A stretch of 64,000 nt of DNA from an uncultured Holophagales bacterium (GTDB lineage Bacteria; Acidobacteriota; Thermoanaerobaculia; Multivoradales; UBA5704), in NCBI GenBank assembly GCA_963842525.1, contig CAWJGT010000001.1:480001-544000 (forward strand), written 5' to 3'. Under the pieces are notes generated by a model. The model ran no database searches and had not been told where the DNA came from. It was given only the letters and a program-made list of their open reading frames with translations. Of the stretch, positions 1 to 26,508 are shown piece after piece. The position numbers and the translations under genes were made by a program. Each line of letters begins with the position of its first letter. The stretch's first letter is position 1.

Positions 1-208
1 AAGAGGACGGTCTCGACGGCCTTCTCGGGCCAGGGCGGGGACAGGAGCCAGCCGCCGAAGCGGTGCCGCACCGCCTCCTCCTGGAGGGCGCTCAGCCCGG
101 CGCAGCGGTAGGGGCCGCCGGGCAGGGCGAGGGCCACCTCGCGGTCGCCCCAGGGCTCGCCGCTCCGCCGGGCCGGGAACAGGTCGGGGTTGACCAGGAA
201 GGCGGCGC
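1..208 (-). CDS. Hypothetical protein, N-terminal part (runs off window edge); possibly HPr-kinase-like partner of the S26 peptidase
   Basis: ATG at 208 opens a frame with high-GC codon usage (MSFGAAFLVNPDLFPARRSGEPWGDREVALALPGGPY...) just downstream of the peptidase; the family guess is from context only. Confidence 0.55.
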
Positions 209-231
209 CGAAGCTCATCCGGTCCCAGGGG

Positions 232-636
232 TCAGTGGGCAGTCAGGCGGCGGAGGGCGTGCCGAAGGTACTCCAGGGCGGCCCGCAGGCGCAGGACCGG
301 GCCGGCGCCGGGTCCGGCCACCCGGCCGAGCACCCCGTCGAGCGGCACGGGGAAGTCGCGGCACGCGCAGCCGTCTCCCCGCGTGACACAGGCGAGCCGG
401 CCTGCGTGCAGCCGGTAGCCGAGGAACCGGTGCACCCGCAGCCGTCCGTCGGAGGACCGGAAGACGAGGACGTCGCCCGGCCAGTAGAGCCGGGCCGGCG
501 CCACCTCGACGCGGTCGCCGTCCGCCAGGCGGGGGGCCATGCAGCCGCCCCGGACCGTCACCTCGACCGGCCGCTCGCGCGCCATCGCGCGGAGCGTGGC
601 GAAGACCTCGGGCGAGTCCGGGATTCCGGAGCGCAT
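232..636 (-). CDS. S24/S26-family peptidase-like protein
   Basis: Motifs VRGGCMAPRLADGD, GDVLVF, VHRF, TRGD match the signal-peptidase-I (Ser/His type) pattern; TACAAT lies 6 nt before the ATG at 636. Confidence 0.75.
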   Translation of the reverse strand: MRSGIPDSPEVFATLRAMARERPVEVTVRGGCMAPRLADGDRVEVAPARLYWPGDVLVFRSSDGRLRVHRFLGYRLHAGRLACVTRGDGCACRDFPVPLDGVLGRVAGPGAGPVLRLRAALEYLRHALRRLTAH

Positions 637-674
637 GGATGCATTGTAAACGGCGGGCCGGATCTCGCGGACGC

Positions 675-1130
675 TCACGGCGCGCGGAATTCTTCGGGTA
701 TGGAAGGGGCGAGGCGCGGGTCGAGCCGCAGGGCGAGCCCGTAATTGTGGACGGCTTCCTCGGTCCGGCCCTGGCGGGCGTAGGCATGGCCGAGGCCGAG
801 GTAGATCTCCGGCCGGGGCTCGATCGCCTCGGCCTCCCGGTAGGCTTCGGCGGCAGCCTCGTAGTTGCGGAACAGGAGCTGGAGCTCGCCGCGCGCCATC
901 GGGATCTTGACCTCCACCGGATCGAGCTCCTGCGCACCGCGGAGGGCCTGGAGCCCGCCCGCCAGCAGCGCGAGGGGAGCCCGGCCCCGGCTGGACGCCG
1001 CGACGGCTAGCTGCTCTACCCCCCGGAGCTGGCGGCTCGCCGCCATGGCGGACCGCCAGCGGACGGTCTGTGCGGCGAGGGCCGCCGCCAGGACGATCAG
1101 GGCGATCCAGGCCAGGGTCCGGCCCTTCAT
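675..1130 (-). CDS. Tetratricopeptide repeat protein with N-terminal membrane/signal segment
   Basis: MKGRTLAWIALIVLAAALAAQ then TPR-like YEAAAEAYREAEAIEP and YLGLGHAYARQGRTEEAVHNYGLALRLDP; start overlaps the stop of the upstream gene. Confidence 0.75.
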   Translation of the reverse strand: MKGRTLAWIALIVLAAALAAQTVRWRSAMAASRQLRGVEQLAVAASSRGRAPLALLAGGLQALRGAQELDPVEVKIPMARGELQLLFRNYEAAAEAYREAEAIEPRPEIYLGLGHAYARQGRTEEAVHNYGLALRLDPRLAPSIPEEFRAP

Positions 1131-2524
1131 GCCTCCTCCTCCTCGCGGTCGCCCCGGCGGAAGACCCAGCTCAGGAAGAGCAGCGCGGGGAACGCGATCA
1201 GCGCGACCCGGAAGGGAAAATGCACCAGGCAGAGCACGGCGAGAGCCGCCGTGCCGGACCATGCGAGCGCGCTGTCATTGCGGCGGCGGTCCGGGGCGCG
1301 CGCTCCGCGGCGCAGCGCGACGAGGAGCGTCCAGAGCCCCCAGCCCAGGGCGGCGAGGCCGGGGATCCCCCACTCCGCGGCCACCTCCAGCGCCTCGTTG
1401 TGGGCGTTGGCGAACACGGGCTGCACCTGGCGGGTGAAGAACGGGGCCCCGCGGTCGAGCAGGGCCAGCTTGGCGGGCACGAACTCGGGGAGGTAGGCGC
1501 CGTGGCCGACGCCGGTCCAGGGATGCTCGCGGAACATCCAGACCGCCGCCCGCCAGCCGTCGAGCCGTCCGGTGAGCACCGCGTCCCAGCTCCCCTCCCG
1601 GGCCTGCTGCACCTTGACGGCGATGCGGCTGCGCAGCGGCGCCACGGCGAGCACCAGGACGAGCGCCAGGGCGGCGCCGCTGCCGAAGACCGCGACGGCC
1701 CAACGGCGTGGCAGGATCAGGGCCCAGAGGAGGGCGCTCCCCAGGGCGAGGGCGGCCAGCGCCGCCAGGGTCTGGGTGAGGGCGATGGCATAGACGCAGA
1801 GCGCCAGCGCCACGACAGTCCCCCAACGCGCCTTGCCCATCGCGCCGCGGGCCAGAGACCATTGAGCGATCAGCGCCGGGAGCACCAGGTAGGCCGCCAG
1901 GTCGCCCGGGTTGCCCGCCAGCGACGTGACGGACAGCCGCGGGTCATAGGCGACCCCTACCAGCTCCAGCGGTTGGAACAGCCGGTGGAACTGGAGGATG
2001 CCCAGGAGCCCCAGGGCCGCGGCCGGCCAGAGCAGGACGCGCAGCAGGCGCTCCAGCCGGTCCTCGTCCAGCGCCAGGCTCCAACCCACCAGTGCGACAG
2101 CGCCGATCCAGAGGTCGGCCAGCGCTTCGCGCACGTGGAGCGGGTGGTCGCTGGTCCACCACCCCAGCGAGGCGACCAGCAGCGCCGGCACGACCGCCCG
2201 CACGGCGCCGTGGCGCCAGACGTCGGCCAGGCGGACCTCCGCTGCCTTGCGCAGGCGCCAGCTCAGGAGGAGGACCGAGGCCAGCGCCAGCCATTCGCTG
2301 ACCATCAGCTTGGGGAGGCGGAACGACTCGTCGGCGGTCGGCGCCAGCAGGAACGGCGGCACCAGGATCGTCAGCCAGACCGCCAGCACGCCCAGCCGCT
2401 CGAGCCGCGACGTCCGGAGCTCGGGGACCGGCCGCGGGGCCGCGCCCGTCCGGTGTCCTCGGGAGGGTTTCACGGCAGTCTGTGCGGTGGCGGCGCGCCG
2501 GGCGGGCTTGCGAGACGGCTTCAC
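1127..2524 (-). CDS. O-antigen ligase (Wzy_C) family membrane protein
   Basis: Multiple TM helices; GNP, GR..W..A..MFREHPWTGVGHG and AHNEALEVAAEWGIPG motifs; GTG at 2524 lies 9 nt after TATACT. Confidence 0.85.
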   Translation of the reverse strand: MKPSRKPARRAATAQTAVKPSRGHRTGAAPRPVPELRTSRLERLGVLAVWLTILVPPFLLAPTADESFRLPKLMVSEWLALASVLLLSWRLRKAAEVRLADVWRHGAVRAVVPALLVASLGWWTSDHPLHVREALADLWIGAVALVGWSLALDEDRLERLLRVLLWPAAALGLLGILQFHRLFQPLELVGVAYDPRLSVTSLAGNPGDLAAYLVLPALIAQWSLARGAMGKARWGTVVALALCVYAIALTQTLAALAALALGSALLWALILPRRWAVAVFGSGAALALVLVLAVAPLRSRIAVKVQQAREGSWDAVLTGRLDGWRAAVWMFREHPWTGVGHGAYLPEFVPAKLALLDRGAPFFTRQVQPVFANAHNEALEVAAEWGIPGLAALGWGLWTLLVALRRGARAPDRRRNDSALAWSGTAALAVLCLVHFPFRVALIAFPALLFLSWVFRRGDREEEEA

Positions 2525-2601
2525 AGCGGGGGGAGTATATCCCGGCCCCCTCGGCAACCGCGGTTGGGCGTGGTCGAACGAGGGGGCCGGGCGGGAGGGC
2601 G

Positions 2602-3177
2602 TTACGGCTGCGGCGGGCGCCGATATCCGTCCCGGTCGTGATCGTCGTCCCGGTCGCGGTCGTAGCGGCCGTCATACCGTCCATTCCGGCCGCCGCGGTA
2701 GCGGCCTCCCCGGCGCGAGTAGTCGTCATAGCGGCCGTAATAGCGGGTCAGCTCGGAGAGGATGCCTCCGATCTGGTCGAGGCCGCGCTCGACGTAGCTC
2801 CTGCGCCCGGTGTAGCGCAGCGACTCCTCGGCCGCGTAAAAGGCGTCGAGCAGGCGCTGGAAGTCGCGTTCGGTGCTGCGGGGGTCACGGCCGTAACCAT
2901 CCACCTGACCGCGAAAGCGGTCCGCCTGCCGCTCGAGCTCGTGCAGGCGGATGGCCACCCGCTCCTCGTTGCGGTCCGGCCGCCGGTTGTTACGTTCGAA
3001 CTCCCGGTGGACATAGGTCGTGGTGTGCTCGAGCTGAGAGGCGAGCTCGGCCACGCGCCTCATGTCCGTGCGGCCCGGATAGCGTCCATACCGGTCATCC
3101 TGGCGGTCGGCGCTCCAGGCGGCCGGGGGCAGGGTGAAAGCGAGAAGTGCGGAGGTCAACAAAATCGTACGTCTCAT
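2602..3177 (-). CDS. Secreted hypothetical protein with helical core and R/D/G/Y-rich tail
   Basis: Sec signal MRRTILLTSALLAFTLPPAAWSA; AAGGAG RBS upstream. Confidence 0.75.
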   Translation of the reverse strand: MRRTILLTSALLAFTLPPAAWSADRQDDRYGRYPGRTDMRRVAELASQLEHTTTYVHREFERNNRRPDRNEERVAIRLHELERQADRFRGQVDGYGRDPRSTERDFQRLLDAFYAAEESLRYTGRRSYVERGLDQIGGILSELTRYYGRYDDYSRRGGRYRGGRNGRYDGRYDRDRDDDHDRDGYRRPPQP

Positions 3178-3508
3178 GGGTTTTCTCCTTGGTTGAAGCC
3201 TCGGAGCCTCTCCTAAGGCAAAGCGGATGCCATATCGCAGGATGCTTGAAAACAAAAGAGTTACCGGGATGGAGCGTGCGCGCGGGGGTGGCTGTTGTCT
3301 CCTGGAAAGGACGGTTTGACCTCCGCGCGCATCTGGACTGCTAGGCTCCCGCGCCCGGCAGCCGTAACAGACCTGGGAAGGGCATACGCGCTAACTTTGC
3401 TCTGGGTGTGGAGGGAGCCGCCGACCGCTGAAGCGGGCGGGCGCGATCCTCGACAGCCGCTTCCCGAAACCATCCTCCTGACCGTCTGAAATGCTGGGGA
3501 GACCCGTC

Positions 3509-3587
3509 CTCTGAGCTGGGGGAGCGGGCTCTGAGTTGGGGGAGGCCCGCCCCAGACAGACACGGGGCGCCGGCTCTGAGTTGGGGG
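3509..3587. repeat. Three direct repeats CTCTGAGYTGGGGG
   Basis: Copies at 3509, 3529 and 3574, upstream of the TIR gene. Confidence 0.65.
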
Positions 3588-3700
3588 TGAGCCCCCCTGC
3601 CTGGGGGAGCGTTCCCCCAGGCCAGATGCGCTCCCCCCCAACCCGGCCGTGTGCTGTCCCTGCGGTGTGGCCTTTCGACTCAGGTAGAATTCCTTCATCC

Positions 3701-4201
3701 ATGCCTGGAGCCAAGACCTTCGACGTCTTTCTCAGCCACAACAGCAAGGACAAGACCGCCGTCCTCGAGCTGGCGGAGTCACTGCGGCGCCGGAAGCTGA
3801 AGGTCTGGTTGGACGTGTGGGAGCTGCGGCCTGGGCAGCTCTGGCAGAAGGCCCTGGAAGCGGCCATCGCGAGCATCCGTTCGGCCGCCATCCTCGTTGG
3901 GAAGGACGGTCTGGGTCCCTGGGAAGACCAGGAGATGGATGCATTTCTGCGGAGGTTCGTGAAACGCACTGCCGACAGCGTCATTCCCGTTCTGCTGCCC
4001 GGCGCCCCGGAAAGGGTCGAGCTGCCACTGTTCCTTGAAGGCTTCACCTGGGTCGACCTCAGAGAGGGCCTGATTCCCGCGAAGCTGGACACATTGGTCT
4101 GGGGGATCACCGGCCGCAAACCAAAGCCGCTCCGCGTTGGTCTTCCTCCCCCCTCTCCCGGTGGACGGGGGGGCGATGGGAGAGGGGGGGCAGGGGGGTG
4201 A
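3701..4201 (+). CDS. TIR (TIR_2) domain, probably the N-terminus of the downstream NACHT-FGE gene, separated by a 1-nt frameshift
   Basis: FDVFLSHNSKDK...VWLDVWELRPG...GPWEDQEM (catalytic-type Glu)...IPVLLPG...WVDL; the frame stops inside a G-rich palindromic repeat. Confidence 0.85.
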   Translation: MPGAKTFDVFLSHNSKDKTAVLELAESLRRRKLKVWLDVWELRPGQLWQKALEAAIASIRSAAILVGKDGLGPWEDQEMDAFLRRFVKRTADSVIPVLLPGAPERVELPLFLEGFTWVDLREGLIPAKLDTLVWGITGRKPKPLRVGLPPPSPGGRGGDGRGGAGG

Positions 4202-6464
4202 GGATCCCGACCTCGCCGCCTACCGGGCCTGGGCACTGGACCGCTATCGCGGCCTGAGCCTGATCGGCCTCGGGGCGGCCGACGTCCGGATGCGTTTCGA
4301 GGTGGTCTACGTACCGCTGCGGATCGCCCGCCGGCCGGGCCGCTTCGAGATGGAAGTCGAGACCGGAAAGCGGCCCGGCCGCGGCCTGGGAGCGGCGGGC
4401 TCCGACGAGATCGAGATCGAAGAGATCTTCGCGACCGGCGTGCCGCACTCGCTGGTTCTTGGCCACCCGGGAGCCGGCAAGACGACGTCGCTCCTGAAGC
4501 TCCTCCACCTCTGTCTCGCCGAGGGTCCGAAGCCTCGGAGCTTGGCAGAGGGCACCGTGCCGGTTCTCCTCCGGCTGCGGCACCTCACCGCCGCGGACCT
4601 TGACCGCCCGCTGGCCGATTTCGCCGAGCGCGAGCTGGCCGAGACTTCCGGCGGCGCTCTGCCGGCCGGACTCGGCACCCGCCTATGGGACCGGGGGCGC
4701 CTGCTCCTGCTGCTCGATGGGTTGGACGAGATCGCGGACGAGGCGCTACGCACCCGCGTCTGCGGCTTTCTGGACTTCGCGCTCACCGGCGCCGAGCGGC
4801 GGCACATTCGTGCCATTCTCTCTTGCCGCTTCGCAGGCTATGGGGGGAGGTCCGGTTCGGCGAGCATCCAGGAGTACCTGACGGCGCTCCACATCGCCAG
4901 CCAGGGGGCCGAGTTGCTCGGCGAGCCGTGCGCCCGCTGCGGCGACGAGTGGTGGCACGAAGTCCTGTTGCTGGTGGTGGGGCTGCCAGGCCGGCGGCTC
5001 TTCGGTCCCTTGATGGAGCGGCTGCTCGCCGTGACGGACCTCCCGCAGCGGGAAGACCTGCTGCGCGCCTGCCTCGACGAGGCCGCGGAGGTGGACCTCG
5101 AACCTTTGCTGTCCCGGCTCGTTCCGGAAGAGCCACCGCAGCGTCTGGCCGTGGTATTGCGTCTCCTGCGCGGCCGCTCTGATCCGCGGCTCTTGGAACG
5201 GGTCACACCGCTCATCGAAAGCACGGACGCCGGGGTGGCTGCACTCGCGCGACAGATCGCCGCCGAGCTGAGCCGGCCGGCGGCGGTGGCCAGGCCGGTC
5301 TGCGACCTCTTCGTCGTCCACCACCCGGCCGATGGGGAGAGCGCCTTCGAGTTGGTGCGGGTCCTGCGCCGGGCGGGGCGGCACGTCCTCGTGGCCGGGG
5401 AGGACCCGCTCTCGGAAAACATCGCGGAAGGAACCACTGCTGTGGCCGTGTTGGCCGGCCCGAGCGGTCGTCCACCCTGGGAAGTGAAGGACCTCTACCG
5501 GACCCTTCGCCTCTTCACCCGGCGCCGGAGGCCCCTCGTGCCGGTGCGGCTGCCGGGTGCCGGAACGTTCCCTGCGCCGCCGGGTGACCTCCCGGCTCTG
5601 GACTGGGTCGATCTCCGCCAGGGGTTGGCGCGAGCGGCCGAGGCGTTGGAGCTCGCCCTGGAAAAGAAGCCGGCCATCTTGACGGCACCACCGGCCGGCC
5701 AGCCTTCGGCCGAGCCCGGCCGCACCTGGATCGAGCCGGTCACCGGTATTCGTTTCCTCTGGATTCCGGGTGGGCGGTTCCAGATGGGAGGAAACCGGTT
5801 CCCCGACGAACAGCCTGTTCACTGGGTTCGGGTCTCCCCCTTCTGGCTGGGGGAGACGCCGGTGACCAACCAGCAGTATGCGCTGTTTCTCGATCAGACC
5901 CGCTATCGAGAGCCCGATTTCTGGCGGGACCGGCGCTTCTCCGCCCCGGAGCAGCCGGTGGTCGGCGTGAGCTGGGAGGACGCAGAGGTTTTTTGCGCGT
6001 GGCTCGCGCGCGTTTCTGGCAAGGCCGTGGTCCTGCCCAGCGAGGCGCAGTGGGAATTCGCAGCACGGGGGCCGGACGCACGGGAGTATCCCTGGGGCAA
6101 CGCCGCGCCGGGTGAGACACTGGCCTGTTTCGATCTCGACTTTGAGAAAGGTCAGCCAGCGCCGGTCGGCTCATACCCGGAGGGCCGGGGGCCTTTTGGC
6201 ACGCTGGACCAGGCAGGCAACGTCTGGGAGTGGTGCCTGGACGTTTGGGACGAGAAGGCATATCAGAAGCGCGCAAAGGGAAGGGAGCCCTTGGATCCAG
6301 TGGTCAGTGGCGAAGGGGAAGGGCGGGTGCTTCGGGGCGGCGGCTGTTTCAGCCCCGCGGAGAATCTGCGGGCCGCTTACCGCGACGGGTCCCGCGCCAG
6401 GTTCCGGGACGACGATGTCGGCTTCCGCGTCGCCGCCGCGCCCGCGAGCACCTTGAAGCCTTGA
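4137..6464 (+). CDS. NACHT NTPase - helical region - degenerate TIR - FGE-sulfatase (C-type lectin fold) protein; putative DGR target; internally deleted
   Basis: Walker A GHPGAGKTT, Walker B LLLLDGLDE; TIR-like DLFVVHH...LVPVRLPG...WVDL; FGE motifs IPGGRFQMG, PVTNQQY, LPSEAQWEFAARG, AGNVWEWC, RVLRGG, GFRV. Confidence 0.85.
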   Translation: MVFLPPLPVDGGAMGEGGQGGEDPDLAAYRAWALDRYRGLSLIGLGAADVRMRFEVVYVPLRIARRPGRFEMEVETGKRPGRGLGAAGSDEIEIEEIFATGVPHSLVLGHPGAGKTTSLLKLLHLCLAEGPKPRSLAEGTVPVLLRLRHLTAADLDRPLADFAERELAETSGGALPAGLGTRLWDRGRLLLLLDGLDEIADEALRTRVCGFLDFALTGAERRHIRAILSCRFAGYGGRSGSASIQEYLTALHIASQGAELLGEPCARCGDEWWHEVLLLVVGLPGRRLFGPLMERLLAVTDLPQREDLLRACLDEAAEVDLEPLLSRLVPEEPPQRLAVVLRLLRGRSDPRLLERVTPLIESTDAGVAALARQIAAELSRPAAVARPVCDLFVVHHPADGESAFELVRVLRRAGRHVLVAGEDPLSENIAEGTTAVAVLAGPSGRPPWEVKDLYRTLRLFTRRRRPLVPVRLPGAGTFPAPPGDLPALDWVDLRQGLARAAEALELALEKKPAILTAPPAGQPSAEPGRTWIEPVTGIRFLWIPGGRFQMGGNRFPDEQPVHWVRVSPFWLGETPVTNQQYALFLDQTRYREPDFWRDRRFSAPEQPVVGVSWEDAEVFCAWLARVSGKAVVLPSEAQWEFAARGPDAREYPWGNAAPGETLACFDLDFEKGQPAPVGSYPEGRGPFGTLDQAGNVWEWCLDVWDEKAYQKRAKGREPLDPVVSGEGEGRVLRGGGCFSPAENLRAAYRDGSRARFRDDDVGFRVAAAPASTLKP
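4148..4203. repeat. REP-like palindromic repeat in the TIR/NACHT linker
   Basis: CCCCCTCTCCC...GGGAGAGGGGG..CAGGGGGGTGAGG, same family as 6554, 12662, 24824, 25628 and 26305. Confidence 0.8.
6330..6449 (+). other. Putative DGR variable region VR1
   Basis: 120 nt, 102/120 identical to the reverse complement of 6801-6920; 17 of 18 mismatches at codon positions 1-2. Confidence 0.75.
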
Positions 6465-6480
6465 TTCTTGTTTTGGGGGT

Positions 6481-6499
6481 CCAGGGGCGGAGCCCCTGG
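6481..6499 (+). promoter_or_regulatory. GC hairpin CCAGGGGC-GGA-GCCCCTGG downstream of VR1 (DGR-type target hairpin)
   Basis: Perfect 8-bp stem with 3-nt loop, 16 nt after the stop; identical copy at 6754-6772 on the minus strand. Confidence 0.7.
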
Positions 6500-6553
6500 T
6501 CGCTGCACGACCGGGAGAGAGGGTCTTCCGAGAGAGGGGTAGAGGCGGCTTGG

Positions 6554-6754
6554 GTCCTCACCCCCTGTCCCCCTCTCCCATCTCCCACCCTTCCACCCCC
6601 GGGAGAGGGGGGACGCGGTTGATGCACCTGAAGCGAGGCCGGAGCTCGCTTCGGGCGTGTTGACATCGGGCTCGCCGCGGAGGCGCCAGCTACGTCCCCC
6701 CTCTCCCGGCGGGGGGTGGAAGGGAGATGGGAGAGGGGGACAGGGGGTGAGGAC
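6554..6754. mobile_element. ~200-bp REPIN/MITE-like element with 33-bp perfect terminal inverted repeats
   Basis: GTCCTCACCCCCTGTCCCCCTCTCCCATCTCCC at 6554-6586 and its reverse complement at 6722-6754; homologous along its length to 26305-26508. Confidence 0.75.
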
Positions 6755-6772
6755 CAGGGGCTCCGCCCCTGG
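6754..6772 (-). promoter_or_regulatory. Second copy of the DGR-type hairpin, downstream of VR2
   Basis: Minus strand reads CCAGGGGC-GGA-GCCCCTGG. Confidence 0.7.
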
Positions 6773-6794
6773 ACCCCAAACAAAACCCAAAGAA

Positions 6795-7237
6795 TCAAGG
6801 GCTCGCGGGCGCGGCGGCGACGCGGAAGCCGACAAGGTCGCTCCGGTCCCAGGCGTGGCTCCCGAAGCGGAAAGCGGCCCGCAGATTCCCCGCGGGGAGG
6901 ACCCAGCCGCCGCCCCGAAGCGGCCGTATCGCGTCATCTGCTTTTGTCAGTCCAAGGTCATCCTTGCACCACTCCCAGACGTTGCCTGCCAGATCGCAGT
7001 GACCGGACCAGCCATTTCCTGCCGGATAGATTCCCACCGGCGTCGGGCGGCCTACAGTACCGTCGAAATTCGCATGCTCAGGATCGGGTTCTTCCGCGCC
7101 CCAGGGGTACTCGCCCACCACCGGAGCCGCCGCCTTCTCCCATTCGGCCTCGGTGGGGAGGCGCAGCGGCATTCCTTTCTGCTCGCTCAGCCAGCGGCAA
7201 TAGGCGTCCGCCTCATACCAGGAGACCTCGGTCACCG
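6795..7237 (-). pseudogene. 5'-truncated FGE-sulfatase/C-type-lectin gene carrying putative VR2 (6801-6920)
   Basis: Begins mid-domain at VTEVSWYEADAYCRWL; LPTEAEWEKAA, AGNVWEWC, LRGGGW...GFRVAAAPASP*. Confidence 0.8.
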
Positions 7238-7312
7238 CGCCCCTGGACCCCAGACGAAAGCCAAAAAAATCAAAGAATCAAGGGCTCGCGGGCGCGGCGG
7301 CGACGCGGAAGC
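7238..7312 (-). repeat. Third, truncated copy of the target-gene 3' end (invariant tail, stop and half hairpin)
   Basis: Minus strand GCTTCCGCGTCGCCGCCGCGCCCGCGAGCCCTTGATTCTTT...GGGGTCCAGGGGCG. Confidence 0.8.
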
Positions 7313-7742
7313 GGCAAGAAAACCGTCTTCGACCTTGAGGATGGGGCGGTCGCCGTCGATCCCGTCGACCATGGCGAGGGCGAGGCGGGCGAAGGCGTTC
7401 CAGGCAAAGCGGTCGGTGAAGCCTTCCTTCTCCCGCAGCGCGGTCCGCGAGGCGATCAGCCATTTGATGACTGCCCTGTAGACGCGCGACCGCCCTTCCG
7501 GCAGGTGGCCCTCGTTCCAATGCACCACGCAGAGGCAGGTGAGCATCACCGGGTTGGTGGCGAGCCGGCGGACCCGCGGCAGGTCGCAGATCGCGGAGAC
7601 CAGGTCCGCCCGGTAGCGTTCGGCCTCGCCGCGCAGGGCTTGCGGGTCTTCCGCCGCATGGAGGCCCGCAACCCAGTGATCGAGGAAGGTACGGATCTCA
7701 GCTTCCCCGAAAGGATCGATGACGGCGGTGTGAAACCCCATC
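7313..7742 (-). pseudogene. Internal fragment of a NACHT protein (post-ATPase helical/winged-helix region)
   Basis: IDPFGEAEIRTFLDHW...RRLATNPVMLTCLCVVH...LPEGRSRVY...FARLALAM is typical of NACHT HD1; no own start or C-terminus. Confidence 0.7.
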
Positions 7743-7856
7743 CGCGTCCTGCCAGTGGGAAGCAGCCATGAACTCTTCGTGGCCGACTGTGACGTAGCTC
7801 TCGATTTTCGCAACGGCATCGAGAATATGCCGCAGGTAAGGCTCGTCTCGGCTCAC
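7743..7856 (-). pseudogene. Truncated HEPN (DUF86/HepT-like) toxin, first ~38 codons only
   Basis: GTG overlapping the MNT stop reads MSRDEPYLRHILDAVAKIESYVTVGHEEFMAASHWQDA, then joins unrelated NACHT sequence; no RxxxxH motif. Confidence 0.75.
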
Positions 7857-8140
7857 AGCGGGACGGCTTCAGAGAGAACTTGCTGCCGCAGGTAGGGGGA
7901 CAGGGATTGCTCCGTGACGACGTCCACCGGACGATGAACGAGATCCTCCAGATCCTGCTTCAGTCCAATCAGGTCAAGGAGCGAGCGTTCGTGCCCAAGA
8001 GTCACGAGCAGATCGAGGTCGCTGCCCTCGCGGCCTTCGCCCCTGGCCAGGGAGCCGAACACGCGCACATTGCTGGCCCCATGGCGCTTTGCCAGATCAA
8101 GGATTTTCGCGCGGTAGTCCCGGAGAAGAAAGGCACTCAT
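7853..8140 (-). CDS. Minimal nucleotidyltransferase (MNT/MntA-type antitoxin)
   Basis: VRVFGSLARGEGREGSDLDLLV...LEDLVHRPVDVVT; 95 aa. Confidence 0.9.
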   Translation of the reverse strand: MSAFLLRDYRAKILDLAKRHGASNVRVFGSLARGEGREGSDLDLLVTLGHERSLLDLIGLKQDLEDLVHRPVDVVTEQSLSPYLRQQVLSEAVPL

Positions 8141-8235
8141 GAGGAGATCAGTCTAACACCCGGCTGCGCATCGACCCGCTACGCTTGGCGACACAGCCAC
8201 GCCCAGGTCCCCCTCGGCCGGCGGGGGGTGAGGGC

Positions 8236-9762
8236 TCACTCCCTTTCCGGCCGGATCCGCACGAGCTGCGCGTTCGAGTCGACGCCGTCCTTGGTGACGA
8301 CCCAGACGAGGGCGCAGCCGTCGTGGAGGCCGCTGGTGGGGAGGGTGGCGGTGATCTGCTGGGGCGATTCCTGCCAGCGGGGGTCGCCCTTGGCGCGCAG
8401 CTCGACGAGGACGTTCGGGTCGTCGCGGTTCCGGTCGTGGGCCTGTAGGACCAGGACCCTGTTGCCGCGGCGGCCGAACCCCTCGCCGGAGACCGTGACC
8501 GGACCACCCGGATGAAGGAAGAGGCTCCCGGCCTCGGGGGTGTCGACGACTCCCTGGGGCCCGATCGAGGGGCAGCCGGGGGGCAGGGTCGCCGGCTGGC
8601 CGCGGAGGAGAGACTGCAGGACCGATCCCGAGAGCGTCATCTCGGCGGTGCGGCCACGGAAGAGGCCGTAGAGGAGCCAGTCGATCTGGCCTTCAGGGTC
8701 TCCCTCGTCCCGGAGATCCCCCACGCACGGCGTGCGCCGCCCACCGCGCCAGCCGTTGTCCAGCGCCTGCCAATGGATGACATAGGAGACCTGGAAGGCG
8801 CCGGGGTCCTCCAGGGCGAGGACCAGCTCCCGCACGTAGCGCGCCGCCAGGCACTCGCTGTAGATGGAGCGGGCGAAGCCGAGCTCCCCGAGGATGAAGT
8901 TCTCCTCCCCGACGTCCCGCCGGCGGCGGCGGACCTGCTGCAGAGCAAAACCGAGGTCGTTCTTCAGTGTCTTCGCCAGGCTCGCCTCCGGCCGCTCGCG
9001 TTTCACGTTGAGGCTCTGCCAGGCGGAATAGGAGTAGTAGTCCACGCTGACCCGCGGCGCCACGGTGTCAATGATGCAGAGCACCTCGCCGTCGCCGCAA
9101 CGCACGCCGTCGCGCTCGACGAGGTTGAACTCCAGCCCGGAGTAGAGCTGGGCCGAGCTGCCGGGCCGGCGGGCGCGGGCTTCCCGGACCCCCTGGGCCC
9201 GCGCTTCGGTGCGGCTGATGAATTCGTCCCATTCCGGCGAGCCCGGAGGCTCCGGCCCCACCGCGTTGTCGCCTTCCCAGTTGAGGAGGATGAAGGTCTT
9301 GCCCGCATAGGCCGGCTCGCCGAGGAGGTGCTCACCCAGCCGGGCGATCTGGCGCCGCACCGCCGCGAAGCCGTTCGGCTCATTGCTCGAGATGGACACG
9401 GTGATCAGGTAAGTGCGGAAACGCGGGTCGCCGAAGAGGGCGTCGTAGGCCGGGCTGGCGGCGATCCGTTGCAGGTACCGGTCGCCGGACGCGTTGATCG
9501 GCGGGTTCACCTGGTAGGAATCCGCCGGGCCCATGTAGATGCGGATGGTCCGGCTGCCGATCGCGGCCACCTTGTCGGCGCCCCAGGCGAGGCGGTTCGG
9601 CACGCCGGGCCAGGCGGAGATGTCGGCGCTCCAGTGATAGACGCCGAAGCGGTCGGCCCGCGCCGTGGGCGGGTCCGGCACGGCTCGGGCCGCAGCGGCG
9701 CCCAGGGCCAGGAGGGGGAGGGTGAGGAGCACGGGGAGGATCGAGGGCGAGCGGACAGGCAT
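8236..9762 (-). CDS. Secreted putative glycoside hydrolase-like (TIM barrel) protein with C-terminal IPT/Ig-like domain, paralog 1
   Basis: Signal peptide; NWEGDN, DYYSYSAW and ILGELGF resemble clan GH-A acid/base and nucleophile strands; C-terminal VSGEGFG...QITATLP. Confidence 0.65.
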   Translation of the reverse strand: MPVRSPSILPVLLTLPLLALGAAAARAVPDPPTARADRFGVYHWSADISAWPGVPNRLAWGADKVAAIGSRTIRIYMGPADSYQVNPPINASGDRYLQRIAASPAYDALFGDPRFRTYLITVSISSNEPNGFAAVRRQIARLGEHLLGEPAYAGKTFILLNWEGDNAVGPEPPGSPEWDEFISRTEARAQGVREARARRPGSSAQLYSGLEFNLVERDGVRCGDGEVLCIIDTVAPRVSVDYYSYSAWQSLNVKRERPEASLAKTLKNDLGFALQQVRRRRRDVGEENFILGELGFARSIYSECLAARYVRELVLALEDPGAFQVSYVIHWQALDNGWRGGRRTPCVGDLRDEGDPEGQIDWLLYGLFRGRTAEMTLSGSVLQSLLRGQPATLPPGCPSIGPQGVVDTPEAGSLFLHPGGPVTVSGEGFGRRGNRVLVLQAHDRNRDDPNVLVELRAKGDPRWQESPQQITATLPTSGLHDGCALVWVVTKDGVDSNAQLVRIRPERE

Positions 9763-9807
9763 GATGATCTCCTCGCCGACAGAGACGACGAGAATAGGAT
9801 ATCCGGT

Positions 9808-11379
9808 TCAGTGCCCGGGCGGTGCCGGGCGAATACGGACGAGGAGGGCGTTGGACTCGATCTTGTCGTCGCGAGAGACCCAGACCAGGGCACAGCCGTC
9901 GCGGGGGTCGTTCGCGGGAAGGGTGGCTTTGATCTGCTGCGGCGACTCGAACCACAAGGGATCCGACGCTGACTTCTCGAGGTCGTGGATCACGTTGGCA
10001 ATGGGCGGCCGGATGCTCCGGCGATCGTGACCTCGGAGGATCAGCACGTGATTGCCTTGGGGTCCGAAGTTGTCACCGGAGAGGGTGAGGGGACCGCCCG
10101 CTTGGAAGAGCGGCTCACCTTCCGGGGCAACGATCCTCGGGCATTTCTGCGGCACGGTTGCCGGCTGGCCGCGGAGCAGGTCGCGCAGGACCTTGCCCAA
10201 GACGGTCATCCCGGCGTCGCGCCCGCGGAAAAGGCCGTAGAACAGCCAATCGACGGAGCCTTCCCCCGCACAGGGCGTGCGCTTCCCGGTGCGCCAGCGG
10301 TTGTCCAGCAACTGCCAGAAGATGGCGTAGGAGAGGCGGAACGCGCCGGGAGCGTCGAGGGCCTCCGCGACCTCGCGGAGGTAGTCCGCCGCCAGGCACT
10401 CGCCGAACTGCGAGCGGGCGAAACCGAATTCGCCGAGGAGGAAGCTCTTTTCCTCCACGTCGGGCCGCCGGCTCCGCACCTTGGCCAGCGCGAAGCGGAG
10501 ATCGCTGTCGAATTTCTCCTTCAAGCTGCCTGGCGGCTCGTCGAGCTTCACGTTGAGGGTCTGCCAGGAAGAGTAGGAATAATAGTCGACCGTGACCCGT
10601 GGCGCGACGGAATCGATCACGCAGCGTACCTGCCCGTCGCCGCAGCGCACGCCGTCGCGCTCGACGAGGTTGAACTCAAGCCCTGAGTAGAGCTGAGCAG
10701 AGCTGTTGGGACGGCGGGAGCGGGCGAGCCGGACGCCGTCGGCCCGCGACTGGATCCAACGAGTGAAGCCCTCCGTCGCTGTCGCTGGCGGGGCTGGGGT
10801 TGGGCCGGGGGCTGGGCGCAGGGCGTTGTCCCCTTCCCAGTTCAGGAGGATGAAGGTCTTGCCCGCGTAGGCCGCCCGTGTGAGCAGGTATTCGCCGAGC
10901 CGCAGGATCTGGGTCTTCGAATCCCGGTACTCGGTCGAGCTGAAACCGTCCTGCCAGCCGCCTCCTTGCTCGACCGGGGCGTAGGTGTAGACGGTGAGCA
11001 GGTAGGTACGGAAGCGGGGATCCCGGAAGAGGGCGTCGTATTCCGGGCTGGCGGCGATCCGCCGCAGGTACAGGTCGTCTTTCGGGTTCGTTTTCGGGTT
11101 CGCTCCGTAGGAGTCGGACGGTCCCAGGTAGACGCGGATCGTCCGGCTGCCGATCTCTGCCACCTTGTCGGCGCCCCAGCGCAGGAGCTTCGGCTGGCAC
11201 GAGGGCGGGGCGCCCAGCGGGCACGGCGCGGCAGTGTCGTCGGCGGCCCAGTGATAGATCCCGAAGCGGTCCGTCCGCAGCGCCGGCGGAGCGGGGACGG
11301 CCTGAGCCGGAACGGCGATCAAGCCGCTCAGAAGCACCGCCGGCAGGGCCGGCAGGATCGCCGAGGACCAGCGAGACAT
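9808..11379 (-). CDS. Secreted putative glycoside hydrolase-like protein, paralog 2
   Basis: Collinear with 8236-9762 (DRFGIYHW, WGADKVA, NWEGDN, LYSGLEFNLVERDGVRCGDG, LGEFGF). Confidence 0.65.
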   Translation of the reverse strand: MSRWSSAILPALPAVLLSGLIAVPAQAVPAPPALRTDRFGIYHWAADDTAAPCPLGAPPSCQPKLLRWGADKVAEIGSRTIRVYLGPSDSYGANPKTNPKDDLYLRRIAASPEYDALFRDPRFRTYLLTVYTYAPVEQGGGWQDGFSSTEYRDSKTQILRLGEYLLTRAAYAGKTFILLNWEGDNALRPAPGPTPAPPATATEGFTRWIQSRADGVRLARSRRPNSSAQLYSGLEFNLVERDGVRCGDGQVRCVIDSVAPRVTVDYYSYSSWQTLNVKLDEPPGSLKEKFDSDLRFALAKVRSRRPDVEEKSFLLGEFGFARSQFGECLAADYLREVAEALDAPGAFRLSYAIFWQLLDNRWRTGKRTPCAGEGSVDWLFYGLFRGRDAGMTVLGKVLRDLLRGQPATVPQKCPRIVAPEGEPLFQAGGPLTLSGDNFGPQGNHVLILRGHDRRSIRPPIANVIHDLEKSASDPLWFESPQQIKATLPANDPRDGCALVWVSRDDKIESNALLVRIRPAPPGH

Positions 11380-11419
11380 GGTTGTCTCTATTGTAAAGCA
11401 AAAACGGCTGCGGAGCTCC

Positions 11420-11803
11420 TCAGTTCACCGCGTTCGGCACCGCCAGCCCGAACGGCGCGATGGCGGCGTCGAAGCTGTCGCCGTCGGGGGTGACCATGCG
11501 GTAGGAGCCGTGCATGGTGCCGACGGCGGTGGGAAGCGGACAGAAGCTCATGTATTCGTAGGCATCGCCGGGGGAGAGGACCGGCTGGTCTCCCACCACG
11601 CCCGGCCCCTGCACGCGCTGCTCCTCGCCGTTGCCGTCCGTGATGATCCACTCGCGGCTGACGAGCTGGGCCGTCTCCGTGCCCTGGTTCGTGATGCGGA
11701 CCTGGTAGGCGAAGAAGAAGTAGCTCTCCTCGGGGGCGCTGCGCTCCGGATCGTAGAAGCTCTGGACCTGCACCCGGATCCCCCGGGTCGTGATGTCGCT
11801 CAT
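11420..11803 (-). CDS. apaG: ApaG protein
   Basis: YFFAYQVRITNQG...REWIITDGNG...GPGVVGDQPVL...GTMHGSY. Confidence 0.95.
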   Translation of the reverse strand: MSDITTRGIRVQVQSFYDPERSAPEESYFFFAYQVRITNQGTETAQLVSREWIITDGNGEEQRVQGPGVVGDQPVLSPGDAYEYMSFCPLPTAVGTMHGSYRMVTPDGDSFDAAIAPFGLAVPNAVN

Positions 11804-11886
11804 GGCCGCTTCATTATGCCACCGGCGCTCGGCCCGGAGTTGCGCGGCGCTGGGATAGAATCCGGCGCGACGAGAGGAGGCCCGCA

Positions 11887-12657
11887 ATGGAGTGGCTGAG
11901 CAACCCGGAGAGCTGGATCGCACTGCTGACGCTGACGGTGCTCGAGATCGTGCTGGGCATCGACAATGTGATCTTCATCTCGATTCTGGCCGGCAAGCTT
12001 CCCAAGGACGAGCAGGGGAAGGCCCGGAAGGTCGGTTTGGCCCTTGCCATGTTCATCCGCCTCGCGCTGCTCGCCTCGATCGCCTGGATCGCCCGGCTGA
12101 CCTCGCCGCTGTTCACGGCGCTCGGCCAGGAGATCTCCGGCCGCGACCTCATCCTCCTGGTCGGCGGCCTCTTCCTGCTCGCCAAGGCGACGCACGAGAT
12201 CCATGAAAAGCTGGAGGGAGAGGACGGCACGGCCACCGCCAAGGTGCGCGCCTCGTTCACCGGCGTGATCATCCAGATCCTGCTGCTGGACATCGTGTTC
12301 TCGCTCGACTCTGTGATCACCGCCGTTGGCATGGCGAACGAGCTGCCGGTCATGATGACCGCCGTGGTCATCTCGGTCCTCGTGATGCTCGTCGCCGCCG
12401 GTTCGATCAGCGACTTCGTCTCCCGCCATCCCACGGTCAAGATGCTGGCCCTGAGCTTCCTGCTGCTGATCGGCATGTCGCTGGTCGCCGAGGGGCTCGG
12501 CCAGCACATCTCCAAGGGCTACATCTACTTCGCAATGGGCTTCTCGGTCTTCGTCGAGATGCTCAACCTGCGGCTGCAGAAGAAGAGCAAGCCGGTCCAC
12601 CTGCACGAGCCGTACGGCCCGGCGGAGGAGCCGCCGGGCGCCGCTCCGACCGCCTGA
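11887..12657 (+). CDS. TerC family membrane protein
   Basis: LEIVLGIDNVIFI, LLDIVFSLDSVITAVGM. Confidence 0.93.
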   Translation: MEWLSNPESWIALLTLTVLEIVLGIDNVIFISILAGKLPKDEQGKARKVGLALAMFIRLALLASIAWIARLTSPLFTALGQEISGRDLILLVGGLFLLAKATHEIHEKLEGEDGTATAKVRASFTGVIIQILLLDIVFSLDSVITAVGMANELPVMMTAVVISVLVMLVAAGSISDFVSRHPTVKMLALSFLLLIGMSLVAEGLGQHISKGYIYFAMGFSVFVEMLNLRLQKKSKPVHLHEPYGPAEEPPGAAPTA

Positions 12658-12661
12658 TCTT

Positions 12662-12722
12662 TTCCCCCTCTCCCGGGGTGGGGGGGAGGGGTGGCGGGAG
12701 AGGGGGTCAGGGGGTGAGGGGC
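12662..12722. repeat. REP-like palindrome between convergent genes
   Basis: CCCCCTCTCCCG...CGGGAGAGGGGGTCAGGGGGTGAGGG. Confidence 0.75.
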
Positions 12723-14402
<1,680 letters not shown>

Positions 14403-26304: not shown

Positions 26305-26508
26305 GTCCTCACCCCCTGTCCCCCTCTCCCATCTCCCACCCGCCCATCCCCGGGAGAGGGGGGACGCAGTTGGTGCATCCGAGACGAGGCCGGAGCCCTG
26401 TGCCTCGGGGCGTGTGATCTCGGGCTCGCCACGGACGCCTCAGCTACGTCCCCCCTCTCCCGGCGGGGGGTGGAAGGGAGATGGGAGAGGGGGACAGGGG
26501 GTGAGGAC
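26305..26508. mobile_element. ~200-bp REPIN/MITE-like element with 33-bp terminal inverted repeats
   Basis: TIRs at 26305-26337 and 26476-26508; homologous to 6554-6754. Confidence 0.75.

What the first reader, a model, noticed from the sequence alone, without database searches (positions are those of the whole stretch)
6330..6920. Two facing DGR-type variable regions with no RT or template in the window (remote DGR targets)
Seen: 6330-6449 (+) and 6801-6920 (-) align without gaps at 102/120 nt, while the FGE sequence upstream is clearly divergent. All 12 differing codons are non-synonymous and 17 of 18 mismatches fall at codon positions 1-2 with the third base kept (ttc/gtc, agc/ctc, tac/ttc, gac/ttc, tcc/agc, cgc/cac, ttc/gac, gac/agc, gat/ctt, gag/ggg, agg/tgg; the exception is tgt/tgg). 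The last 33 nt are invariant (IMH-like). Established: DGRs mutate template adenines in AAC/AAT codons and target CLec folds (Bordetella phage Mtd, Treponema TvpA). Inference: a DGR elsewhere diversifies these NLR-like sensors in trans. Predicted template is roughly CTTCGGGGCGGCGGCTGG-AAC-AAC-CCCGCG-RAG-AATCTGCGGGCCGCT-WAC-CGC-AAC-RGG-AAC-MAC-GCC-AGG-AAC-CGG-AAC-RAC-AAT-GTCGGCTTCCGCGTCGCCGCCGCG.
Basis: partly seen in the sequence, partly recalled or inferred. Interest (0 to 1): 0.9.

Follow-up and report, generated by a model that had tools for sequence, protein, structure and literature searches.

The report
Orphaned DGR variable regions, template missing
Two facing gene ends carry the mutation pattern of a diversity-generating retroelement, but the matching template and enzyme are not in this genome assembly and both host genes are broken, so this is most likely a recent relic of a known kind of system.

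Summary
Windows 6330-6449 (+) and 6801-6920 (-) match at 102/120 without gaps, and 17 of 18 mismatches lie at codon positions 1-2. Third positions agree at 39/40 in the block but only 39/103 in the FGE sequence just upstream. One correction: TCC/AGC is Ser/Ser, so 11 of 12 differing codons change the residue.

These are DGR-type variable regions. A same-genus genome (G001) has a complete HTH-avd-TR-RT cassette. Its target VR is followed by the same CCTTGATTCTTG motif and GC hairpin. All 7 AAC codons of its template align with window codons that differ.

The "remote DGR in trans" inference is not supported. Whole-genome BLASTN finds no adenine-rich copy. The only DGR in the assembly (contig C3) has an unrelated template and a frameshifted RT.

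Both host genes are decayed. Gene 1 is split by a MITE-like piece and lacks 197 aa of its NACHT module. Gene 2 is a remnant. A third VR end is only a 75-nt scar.

The genome holds three more template-less VR families, one flanking leftover RT fragments. A relative shows a clean cassette deletion.

Best reading: recently orphaned VRs after cassette loss (about 0.55). Main rival: the cassette exists off-assembly or in part of the population (about 0.3). This is a new member of a known kind.

The parts
3713..4126 (+). N-terminal TIR part of gene 1. It lies in a different reading frame (ORF 3536-4201) from the rest of the gene.
   Evidence: tblastn of the 1095-aa homolog P0002: residues 4-140 map to 3713-4126 in frame +2, and the rest maps in frame +3; ORF list.
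4149..4204 (.). MITE-like repeat piece between the TIR part and the NACHT part of gene 1. It splits the gene into two ORFs.
   Evidence: 4149-4204 matches the repeat element copies in L049. The P0002 alignment jumps frame between 4126 and 4200.
4137..6464 (+). Gene 1 main ORF (775 aa): NACHT (truncated), an internal TIR-like region and FGE-sulfatase/CLec. It lacks about 197 aa of the NACHT module.
   Evidence: Pfam: FGE-sulfatase 540-766 (E 1.7e-50), NACHT 106-202 (28.4 bits, cut-off 26.7), TIR_2 392-503 (24.3 bits, below cut-off 28). BLASTP to P0002: query 12-238 aligns to 136-366 and query 244-775 to 564-1095, so P0002 residues 367-563 have no counterpart.
6324..6449 (+). VR1, the DGR-type variable region at the 3' end of gene 1.
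6459..6499 (+). VR1 3' flank: CCTTGATTCTTG motif (6459-6470), a spacer, and the GC hairpin CCAGGGGC-GGA-GCCCCTGG (6481-6499).
   Evidence: DNA fold about -11 kcal/mol. A genuine DGR VR in G001 has the same architecture.
6553..6755 (.). Palindromic MITE-like element inserted between the two facing VRs.
   Evidence: Inverted arms 6553-6641 / 6667-6755, 81%. Its 22-nt terminus occurs 226 times in the genome, in 70 inverted pairs with a median span of 198 nt.
6754..6800 (-). VR2 3' flank: CCTTGATTCTTTG motif next to the stop codon and the same hairpin (6772-6754).
6801..6926 (-). VR2, the DGR-type variable region.
   Evidence: Against its ortholog in L049 the VR mismatches run 10/11/3 by codon position, while the upstream FGE runs 9/6/24.
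6795..7235 (-). Gene 2 remnant: the C-terminal half of an FGE-sulfatase domain (146-aa ORF), corresponding to residues 1020-1164 of the 1164-aa ortholog in L049.
   Evidence: Pfam FGE-sulfatase profile positions 93-254 of 255 only; tblastn.
7238..7312 (-). Third VR scar: the last 29 nt of a VR plus its own 3' flank, cut off in the loop of its hairpin and joined directly to the truncated start of gene 2.
   Evidence: (I5, 29/29). Its spacer differs from that of VR2, so it is a separate copy.
7313..7359 (.). 47-nt piece inverted relative to the ortholog, lying at the rearrangement junction.
   Evidence: BLASTN: window 7311-7359 matches L049 6520-6472 in reverse, while the neighbouring 7366-7746 matches L049 6530-6911 forward.
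7366..7746 (-). Remnant of the NACHT-region coding sequence of the gene 2 ortholog (L049 residues 612-758). Nothing corresponding to residues 1-611 or 759-1019 is present.
   Evidence: BLASTN 92% over 382 nt; tblastn 84% over 147 aa.

Best explanation
VR1 and VR2, and the 75-nt scar of a third copy, are variable regions written by a diversity-generating retroelement.

The mechanism would be as follows. An RT copied one common template of at least 126 nt into cDNA and misread template adenines. The cDNA then replaced the 3' end of the CLec/FGE-sulfatase domain in several NACHT/TIR 'NLR-like' genes. A conserved motif and GC hairpin just downstream of each VR guided the replacement.

This made the blocks identical at every non-adenine position while scrambling about a dozen NNC-type codons.

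The cognate avd-TR-RT cassette is no longer in this genome. It was most likely deleted recently, as seen in relatives and at another locus of this genome. The VRs are therefore frozen orphans, and their host genes are themselves decaying.

Shown: the substitution pattern, the shared docking architecture, the absence of a template in the assembly, the gene decay, and the cassette deletions elsewhere.

Inferred: that a DGR wrote these blocks, and that its cassette is lost rather than merely unassembled.
For: (1) Pattern. The blocks match at 102/120 with 17/18 mismatches at codon positions 1-2. Third positions agree at 39/40 in the block and 39/103 upstream. The bodies of the two genes are only 53% identical in DNA and belong to different architectures, so the block was homogenised long after the genes diverged.

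(2) Adenine signature without a template. Across the four template-less VR families of this genome, invariant VR sites are A at 11/290. The 300 nt upstream are A at 659/3300 (p = 9e-15). Variable sites are A at 73/262.

(3) A genuine DGR in same-genus G001 (HTH-avd-TR-RT; 16/16 TR-VR mismatches have A in the TR). TR-VR homology there ends exactly before GCCTTGATTCTTG, followed by the hairpin GGTCCAGGGGGCGGAGCCCCCTGG. This is the window's flank with one extra G:C pair. All 7 AAC codons of that TR align with window codons that differ. By hand, the chance of this is C(12,7)/C(40,7), about 4e-5.

(4) The hairpin occurs in G000 only at these VRs. In the family scan, 7 of 20 pattern hits follow a CLec '...GFR...' end.

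(5) VR2 sits in a gene remnant, where selection on the protein cannot explain the pattern.

(6) No template: (tblastn did recover the C3 TR, so the method can see templates). No second DGR RT or avd.

(7) Precedent for loss. G020 carries the G001 locus with avd, TR and most of the RT cleanly deleted. In G000 itself, the facing pair C3:1675229/1675813 flanks leftover HTH and RT fragments (E 2e-6, 8e-7, 7e-5).

(8) From passages I read: GC-rich hairpins 4-34 bp downstream of VRs are needed for efficient homing (PMC3240598). FGE-sulfatase targets fused to TIR, NTPase and metallophosphatase domains are catalogued (PMC5758913). Degenerate DGR loci eroded by MITE-like elements are described (PMC10907252).
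Against: No template was seen, so adenine-to-N cannot be shown directly for this family.

One mismatch (TGT/TGG) is at a third position and cannot come from a template adenine.

The AAT codon is unchanged in both copies.

The simple test 'mismatches involve an A' does not differ from the upstream region (11/18 against 70/144, p = 0.45).

The hairpin loop is GGA or CGGAG rather than the 4-nt GRNA loop reported for phage DGRs (PMC3240598).

The window has no RT, avd or HTH remnant (all tblastn E > 0.03), so a deletion at this locus is inferred by analogy only.

The scaffolds are essentially perfect, with 1 non-adenine difference in about 100 nt. The tightest pair in each of the three other orphan families is equally tight (0-1 third-position differences). 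This sits uneasily with four old, independent losses and favours very recent loss or a cassette that still exists off-assembly.

The assembly is 96.4% complete in 34 contigs, and no reads of the source sample could be examined.
Confidence: 0.55

Rival explanations
1. The cognate TR/RT cassette still exists in the organism but is not in this consensus assembly. It could be an unassembled or unbinned contig, a mobile element, or a structural variant carried by part of the population. In that case the VRs are still being rewritten, in trans or in cis in those cells.
For: VR1 and VR2 scaffolds are essentially perfect, and the other three orphan families have equally tight pairs. The assembly is 96.4% complete, has 3.4% contamination and is in 34 contigs. 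The C3 DGR does have a remote VR 430 kb away with 10/10 A-to-N mismatches, so remote targeting occurs in this genome. PMC10907252 (passages read) reports VRs with no template match in the consensus genome, where long reads revealed variants with intact RT and TR.
Against: Four separate templates would all have to be missing from an assembly whose VR loci sit in contigs of 0.8-2 Mb. No contig holds a partial template or a second DGR-type RT or avd. The exact 26-mer of the invariant end found no template-like copy in GTDB species genomes, JGI metagenome contigs or IMG/VR. Both host genes are broken, one other locus shows RT debris in place, and a relative shows outright cassette deletion.
Confidence: 0.3
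2. No retroelement is involved. The blocks are paralogous CLec ends kept alike by gene conversion between nearby inverted repeats, and diversifying selection keeps about a dozen ligand-contact codons different.
For: The two copies are inverted repeats only 351 nt apart, a geometry that favours intramolecular conversion. No template was found.
Against: Differences alternate with identical stretches every 3-15 nt, which conversion tracts would erase. VR2 and the third scar lie in dead gene fragments where selection on the protein cannot act. Family B shows the same pattern between different contigs (5/8/0 by codon position). Invariant sites are depleted of adenine about five-fold. The variable codons coincide with the AAC codons of a genuine template in a congener, and the flank is the same docking motif and hairpin.
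Confidence: 0.05
3. The DGR on contig C3 (HTH-avd-TR-RT at C3:959649-961861) diversifies the window VRs in trans, as the reader proposed for 'a DGR elsewhere'.
For: It is the only DGR in the assembly. It has a remote target. Its target is also an FGE-sulfatase/CLec end whose peptide is homologous to the window VRs.
Against: Its TR differs from the window VRs at many non-adenine positions, and BLASTN finds no similarity between them. Homing would overwrite the VR with the TR scaffold, which has not happened. Its VRs lack the CCTTGATTCTTG motif and hairpin. The RT reading frame is broken near C3:961601.
Confidence: 0.01

Closest known systems
DGR-diversified NACHT/STAND-CLec 'putative antigen sensors' of multicellular bacteria (Thiohalocapsa PB-PSB1 and DGR clade 5; PMC10907252, abstract and passages read)
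   Same: C-terminal CLec VR on a central NACHT NTPase with TIR or metallophosphatase effector domains. Often two targets per locus. Variation almost only at codon positions 1-2. Remote and 'degenerate' loci with missing or pseudogenised machinery. MITE-like elements eroding components. Some VRs have no template match in the consensus genome.
   Different: No cognate template or RT exists anywhere in this assembly for this family or three others. Both target genes are broken. Activity in the population could not be tested. The host appears to be a soil Thermoanaerobaculia-like acidobacterium, inferred from names attached to homologs.
Treponema denticola TvpA-type FGE-sulfatase/CLec DGR targets and the 'category b' targets of the GenBank DGR survey (PMC5758913, passages read)
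   Same: The VR forms the C-terminal part of an FGE-sulfatase domain (Pfam E 1.7e-50). That survey lists targets combining Toll-like receptor, NTPase and metallophosphatase domains, and remote targets more than 100 kb away.
   Different: Those targets were defined by a matching TR with A-to-N differences only. Here that defining partner is missing.
Bordetella phage BPP-1 mtd target site: IMH plus downstream hairpin/cruciform (PMC3240598, passages read)
   Same: GC-rich 3' end of the VR that is never mutated. A 7-10 bp GC stem downstream of the point where TR-VR homology ends. Stem structure is conserved while sequence can vary: G001 has one extra G:C pair, and L049 has a 7-bp stem with loop CGAAA.
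   Different: The loop is GGA or GAA (or CGRAG), not a 4-nt GRNA, except GAAA in L049. The stem starts 28-37 nt after the VR, at or just beyond the 4-34 bp reported. Function here is untested.
The complete DGR of the same-genus genome G001 (locus L052) and its deleted form in G020 (locus L097)
   Same: The same 3' docking motif and hairpin, the same CLec VR layout, and AAC codons at the window's variable codons. The G020 copy shows how such a VR becomes an orphan.
   Different: The G001 template scaffold differs from the window VRs, so it is a sister element and not the missing template. Its RT is only about 39% identical to the C3 RT of G000, and G000 has no closer copy.

Membership tests
DGR variable region (target of mutagenic retrohoming) | A cognate template repeat in the same genome that differs from the VR only (or almost only) at template adenines | tested here: not met
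   BLASTN of both VRs against all 34 contigs finds only VR1, VR2 and the 75-nt scar. tblastn with CLec ends recovers the C3 template but none for this family. The exact 26-mer of the invariant end found no template-like copy in three public collections.
DGR variable region (target of mutagenic retrohoming) | A DGR-clade reverse transcriptase (with accessory avd) in the genome | tested here: inconclusive
   One DGR-type RT with an LPIGAYTSQ motif, plus avd and HTH, lies on contig C3. It serves another template and its frame is broken. The motif's status as a DGR hallmark is recalled, not tested. The other 17 RVT_1 hits look like group II intron RTs, fragments, or an unrelated 504-aa RT.
DGR variable region (target of mutagenic retrohoming) | Differences between copies confined to first and second codon positions within an otherwise identical block at the C-terminus of a CLec/FGE-sulfatase fold | tested here: met
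   17/18 mismatches at positions 1-2. Third positions agree at 39/40 in the block and 39/103 upstream. Pfam FGE-sulfatase E 1.7e-50 and 1.8e-32.
DGR variable region (target of mutagenic retrohoming) | Adenine specificity of the mutagenesis | tested here: inconclusive
   Indirect only. In this family, invariant sites are A at 3/76 and letters at variable sites are A at 11/40. Pooled over four families, invariant sites are A at 11/290 against 659/3300 upstream. The variable codons align with AAC codons of the G001 template. The direct TR-VR comparison is impossible, and the mismatch-involves-A test was not significant.
DGR variable region (target of mutagenic retrohoming) | Invariant GC-rich 3' end (IMH-like) and a GC-rich inverted repeat downstream of the VR | tested here: met
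   33 invariant nt are followed by CCTTGATTCTTG and an 8-bp GC stem. A VR with a proven template in G001 has the identical arrangement. Related hairpins follow genuine VRs in L053, L054 and L056.
DGR variable region (target of mutagenic retrohoming) | Ongoing variation at the VR within a population | not testable with these tools
   No run holds the stretch at more than 0.15 of sampled words, and only fragmentary soil metagenome contigs could be laid.
Bacterial NACHT/STAND NLR-like sensor (effector - NTPase - sensor) | Intact tripartite protein with a complete NACHT module and a contiguous effector domain | tested here: not met
   In gene 1 the TIR part is in another frame behind a MITE-like piece, and 197 aa of the NACHT module are missing relative to the 1095-aa homolog P0002. 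Gene 2 keeps only residues 612-758 and 1020-1164 of its 1164-aa ortholog. Walker A (GHPGAGKT) and Walker B (LLLLDGLDE) are still readable in gene 1; assigning these motifs is my reading.

The most novel reading that the evidence does not exclude
The four template-less VR families of this genome each keep a pair with 0-1 silent differences, as tight as the genuine VR-TR pair. They may therefore not be fossils. They could be kept alike and diversified without a dedicated template. For example, a trans-acting RT could use the transcript of one family member, which carries the same docking motif and hairpin, as the template for another. Alternatively, transient mobile cassettes could revisit conserved docking sites ('hit and run').
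Probability: 0.05. Interest if true: 0.85.

Novelty: new member of a known kind. Interest (0 to 1): 0.35.

Why it matters
DGR-diversified NACHT-CLec proteins have been proposed as hypervariable antigen sensors of bacteria. How such systems are gained, shared in trans and lost is poorly documented.

This genome is a compact natural series. It has one nearly intact DGR, one facing VR pair with RT debris, and three VR families with no machinery at all. Relatives hold the intact and the cleanly deleted forms.

It shows that VRs can be recognised as DGR products without their template, using three features. Silent sites are frozen while first and second positions are scrambled. Invariant sites are depleted of adenine. 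The docking motif and hairpin are conserved.

For genome scans, the practical lesson is that "VR-like pair, no RT in view" more often means an orphan than a remote target.

Tried and rejected
Looking for the template.
- BLASTN of VR1 and VR2 against the whole assembly found no adenine-rich copy.
- tblastn with CLec ends found no adenine-rich copy.
- tblastn with G001 and G002 HTH, avd and RT proteins found only the C3 DGR in the genome and nothing significant in window 1-14000.
- The exact 26-mer of the invariant end gave one unrelated actinobacterial hit in genome contigs (L048). It gave one relative's VR in metagenome contigs (L049). It gave none in viral contigs.
- Own-genome records may be left out of those scans.

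Relatives.
- The VR DNA was searched in 61 genomes and in five handles. It found VR homologs at 68-76% identity but no template.
- Flanks of 30 RT loci (L050-L079) were compared with the window VRs. Only a hairpin match in L052 and weak hits came back.
- I first took L058 (G024) to hold a VR/TR pair. Closer reading shows two facing VRs with an RT fragment between them.

Reads.
- The look-up of sequencing runs gave four soil metagenomes with shares of 0.15 or less.
- Read laying on contigs showed two 100%-identical short pieces in X1 (5823-5995 and 7072-7249).
- It also showed scattered relatives' fragments, including other letters at 6402/6403 in X2.
- Nothing usable about variation or a template came from this. 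This is no evidence either way.

Other rejected ideas.
- VR1 as template of VR2, or the reverse, is rejected. Seven of 18 mismatches have no A in either copy.
- The third copy at 7238-7312 as a template remnant is rejected. It carries the VR-type downstream flank and half the hairpin.
- The 'mismatch involves an A' test against upstream sequence was not significant.

Not attempted or not available.
- Pfam found nothing for ORFs 8236-9762 (-), 9808-11379 (-), 7880-8515 (+) and 8512-9972 (+).
- Structure prediction, complex prediction, Rfam scans and the protein atlas were not used.
- Supplements of the three papers were closed and not seen. They may list comparable orphan VRs or hairpin data.
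- A literature search for orphan or remnant VRs returned nothing relevant. I therefore make no claim that orphan VR families are unreported. PMC10907252 already describes degenerate loci.

Full report
**The observation**

The window is G000:C1:480001-544000, in a 9.95-Mb, 67% GC assembly of 34 contigs. The assembly is 96.4% complete with 3.4% contamination.

The stretch 6330-6449 (+) and the reverse complement of 6801-6920 align without gaps at 102/120. Both are in frame with their ORFs. Twelve codons differ, and 17 of 18 mismatches are at codon positions 1-2. The last 33 nt are identical. The repeat finder extends the arms to 126 nt (6324-6449 / 6801-6926).

The block stands out sharply from its surroundings.
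- The FGE-coding sequence just upstream is only 165/309 identical, with mismatches of 35/45/64 by codon position.
- Third positions agree at 39/40 inside the block and 39/103 upstream (p = 4e-12).

So a roughly 126-nt segment was made identical in two otherwise old paralogs, and then, or at the same time, scrambled at first and second codon positions.

**The genes**

Gene 1 (ORF 4137-6464, 775 aa) has three Pfam matches:
- FGE-sulfatase, E 1.7e-50.
- NACHT, 28.4 bits.
- A sub-threshold TIR_2, 24.3 bits.

Its relatives are about 1090-1100-aa TIR-NACHT-TIR-FGE proteins, many named by their sources as from Thermoanaerobaculia MAGs. Against the best of them (P0002, 61% identity), gene 1 shows two defects.
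- It lacks residues 367-563 of the NACHT module.
- Its N-terminal TIR part lies at 3713-4126 in another frame, separated by a MITE-like piece at 4149-4204.

Gene 2 (ORF 6795-7235, 146 aa) is only the C-terminal half of an FGE domain. A metagenome contig (L049) carries the full 1164-aa ortholog, with metallophosphoesterase, NACHT and FGE parts; the first two are my reading of its motifs. Of that ortholog the window keeps only residues 612-758 (7741-7301) and 1020-1164 (7235-6798).

Between these two pieces lie two odd features.
- A 75-nt third VR end (7238-7312). It is 29/29 identical to the VR end, has its own spacer, and is cut in the loop of its hairpin.
- A 47-nt piece inverted relative to L049.

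Both 'sensors' are therefore decayed genes.

**Why the blocks are DGR variable regions**

(i) The pattern above matches the genuine VR-TR pair of this genome, which shows 8/7/1 mismatches by codon position.

(ii) VR2 against its L049 ortholog shows 10/11/3 mismatches in the VR. The FGE sequence upstream shows 9/6/24.

(iii) Same-genus genome G001 has a complete cassette (HTH, a 113-aa avd-like ORF, TR, RT) facing a CLec target.
- All 16 TR-VR mismatches have A in the TR.
- TR-VR homology ends exactly before GCCTTGATTCTTG, followed by the hairpin GGTCCAGGGGGCGGAGCCCCCTGG.
- The window VRs are followed by CCTTGATTCTT(T)G and GGTCCAGGGGCGGAGCCCCTGG. This is the same stem, one G:C pair shorter.

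(iv) In the alignment, all 7 AAC codons of the G001 template fall on window codons that differ. Six of these differ at both positions 1 and 2. The other five differing codons align as follows:
- One aligns with TAC, with the A at the same position.
- Two align with AGG.
- Two align with codons without A (TCG and TGG).

(v) Adenines show template-free evidence.
- In VR1, 7 of 11 adenines sit on mismatch sites.
- Pooled over the four orphan families of the genome, invariant VR sites are A at 11/290, against 659/3300 in the 300 nt upstream.
- Variable sites are A at 73/262.

(vi) The hairpin occurs in G000 only at these VRs. Related hairpins follow genuine VRs in L053, L054 and L056. This agrees with the role of GC-rich hairpins downstream of VRs (PMC3240598, passages read).

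(vii) VR2 and the scar lie in dead DNA, so selection on a protein cannot explain their state.

**Why the 'remote DGR in trans' inference fails for this assembly**

BLASTN (word size 7) of both VRs finds three places only, all VR-type.

Of 18 RVT_1 matches, only one is DGR-type, at C3:960937-961861. I read most of the other 17 as group II intron RTs or fragments of them, plus one unrelated 504-aa RT. That DGR-type RT sits in an HTH-avd-TR-RT cassette.
- The cis VR shows 15/17 mismatches with A in the TR.
- A remote VR 430 kb away shows 10/10 such mismatches plus a 1-nt insertion.
- The template sequence is unrelated to the window VRs.
- The RT frame is broken near C3:961601.

No other avd, HTH or RT homolog of the G001 or G002 cassettes exists in the genome or as a remnant in window 1-14000. 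An exact 26-mer of the invariant end found no template-like copy in three public collections.

**Context that favours loss**

G020 carries the G001 locus with the segment from the HTH gene's 3' end through avd, TR and most of the RT removed at a clean junction.

G000 itself has three further VR families without templates:
- B: C4:105088, C9:1921047 and C9:1916749.
- C: the facing pair C14:203917/204957, plus C28:6212.
- D: the facing pair C3:1675229/1675813, plus C24:129371.

Their tightest pairs give 5/8/0, 11/8/1 and 9/6/0 mismatches by codon position.

The D pair is syntenic with G002's locus, where an HTH gene and a 276-aa RT lie between two facing VRs. In G000 only short HTH and RT fragments remain there. 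Family B resembles VR and TR of genuine DGRs in G080 and G095 at 81-85%.

In the family scan, 10 of 92 genomes (G000 included) have a DGR-type RT at E of 1e-20 or better. The hairpin-bearing VRs of G069, G098 and G020 have none; these genomes are 96%, 71% and 88% complete.

PMC10907252 (passages read) describes the same kind of degenerate loci, MITE-like erosion, and VRs without a template match in Thiohalocapsa.

**What remains open**

The scaffolds are almost perfect. There is one non-adenine difference in about 100 nt here, and 0-1 silent differences in the tightest pair of each other family.

Either the cassettes were lost very recently, or they persist off-assembly or in part of the population. 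PMC10907252 found the latter with long reads. No reads of the source could be examined.

My estimates:
- That a DGR wrote these blocks: about 0.9.
- That its cassette is truly gone: about 0.6 of that.
- That it still exists somewhere: about 0.3 overall.

**Comparison and verdict**

This works like, and almost certainly was, a target set of a cellular DGR of the NACHT-CLec 'antigen sensor' type (PMC10907252; PMC5758913 category b). It fails the defining membership test of a matching template in the genome. It is best filed as orphaned VRs of a known kind: a new member, not a new mechanism.

Interest is moderate.

Noticed in passing
window 6553-6755; also 4149-4204, 25632, 26309-26483; genome-wide: MITE-like palindromic element with 22-nt termini (TCACCCCCTGTCCCCCTCTCCC). 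The genome holds 226 exact copies of the terminus, and 70 form inverted pairs with a median span of 198 nt. One copy sits between the facing VRs and one piece splits gene 1. Related copies occur in metagenome contig L049.
   Followed up: partly
G000 contig C3:958083-961861 and C3:1390965-1391110 (outside the window): The only DGR in the assembly is HTH-avd-TR-RT with a cis target of 412 aa and a remote VR 430 kb away. The RT frame is broken by a 1-nt shift in an A/G-rich run, and the remote VR carries a 1-nt insertion that ends its 1047-aa ORF. Real decay and long-read indel error cannot be told apart here.
   Followed up: partly
G000 C4:105088; C9:1916749 and 1921047; C14:203917/204957; C28:6212; C3:1675229/1675813; C24:129371: Three more families of CLec gene ends have DGR-type variation (positions 1-2, adenine-poor invariant sites) and no template in the assembly. 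Two of them include facing pairs like the one in the window.
   Followed up: partly
G000 C3:1675229-1675813: The 584 nt between this facing VR pair hold short remnants of an HTH gene and of the N- and C-terminal ends of a DGR RT. These are homologous to the G002 cassette (tblastn E 2e-6, 8e-7, 7e-5). The cassette was deleted in place.
   Followed up: yes
L097 (G020:C10) versus L052 (G001:C531): The loci are orthologous at 83-88% identity. In G020 the stretch L052 776-2259 (end of the HTH gene, avd, TR, most of the RT) is missing at a clean junction, leaving an orphan VR with its hairpin.
   Followed up: yes
L057 (G002:C71) 1065-2425: An HTH gene and a 276-aa DGR-type RT fill the 1360 nt between two facing VRs. 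No room is left for an avd or a template, and neither VR is adenine-rich. Where this element keeps its template is unclear.
   Followed up: no
window 7238-7365: Complex rearrangement. A third VR end is truncated in the loop of its hairpin and fused to mid-FGE sequence. Next to it is a 47-nt inverted piece. This suggests breakage at the hairpin or template switching during replication.
   Followed up: partly
L019/L044-L047 (G039, another family of the same order): Four VR-like copies, including a facing pair 520 nt apart (C6:222603 + / 223542 -) and a 95%-identical copy on contig C29. None is adenine-rich.
   Followed up: partly
G000 C3:1641386, C9:828972, C23:404516; C6:149873, C9:858453, C12:17655, C19:363636; C3:361343, C11:180823, C25:513222: Several sets of RT genes have identical scores (450-530-aa frames) and look like multi-copy group II introns. 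Fragments lie at C1:132007/134123, C34:125397 and C14:162051.
   Followed up: no
G000 C34:526061-527572: A 504-aa RT-like ORF (RVT_1, 37.9 bits) looks like neither a group II intron RT nor a DGR RT. It may be a defence-type RT.
   Followed up: no
window 8236-9762 (-) and 9808-11379 (-): Two long ORFs with high third-position GC (0.91 and 0.85) have no Pfam match. They sit between the decayed sensor locus and housekeeping genes (ApaG, TerC, RecQ-like helicase).
   Followed up: no
G000 C1:224813-225060: Another FGE-sulfatase gene end is followed by tandem repeats of roughly 90 nt.
   Followed up: no
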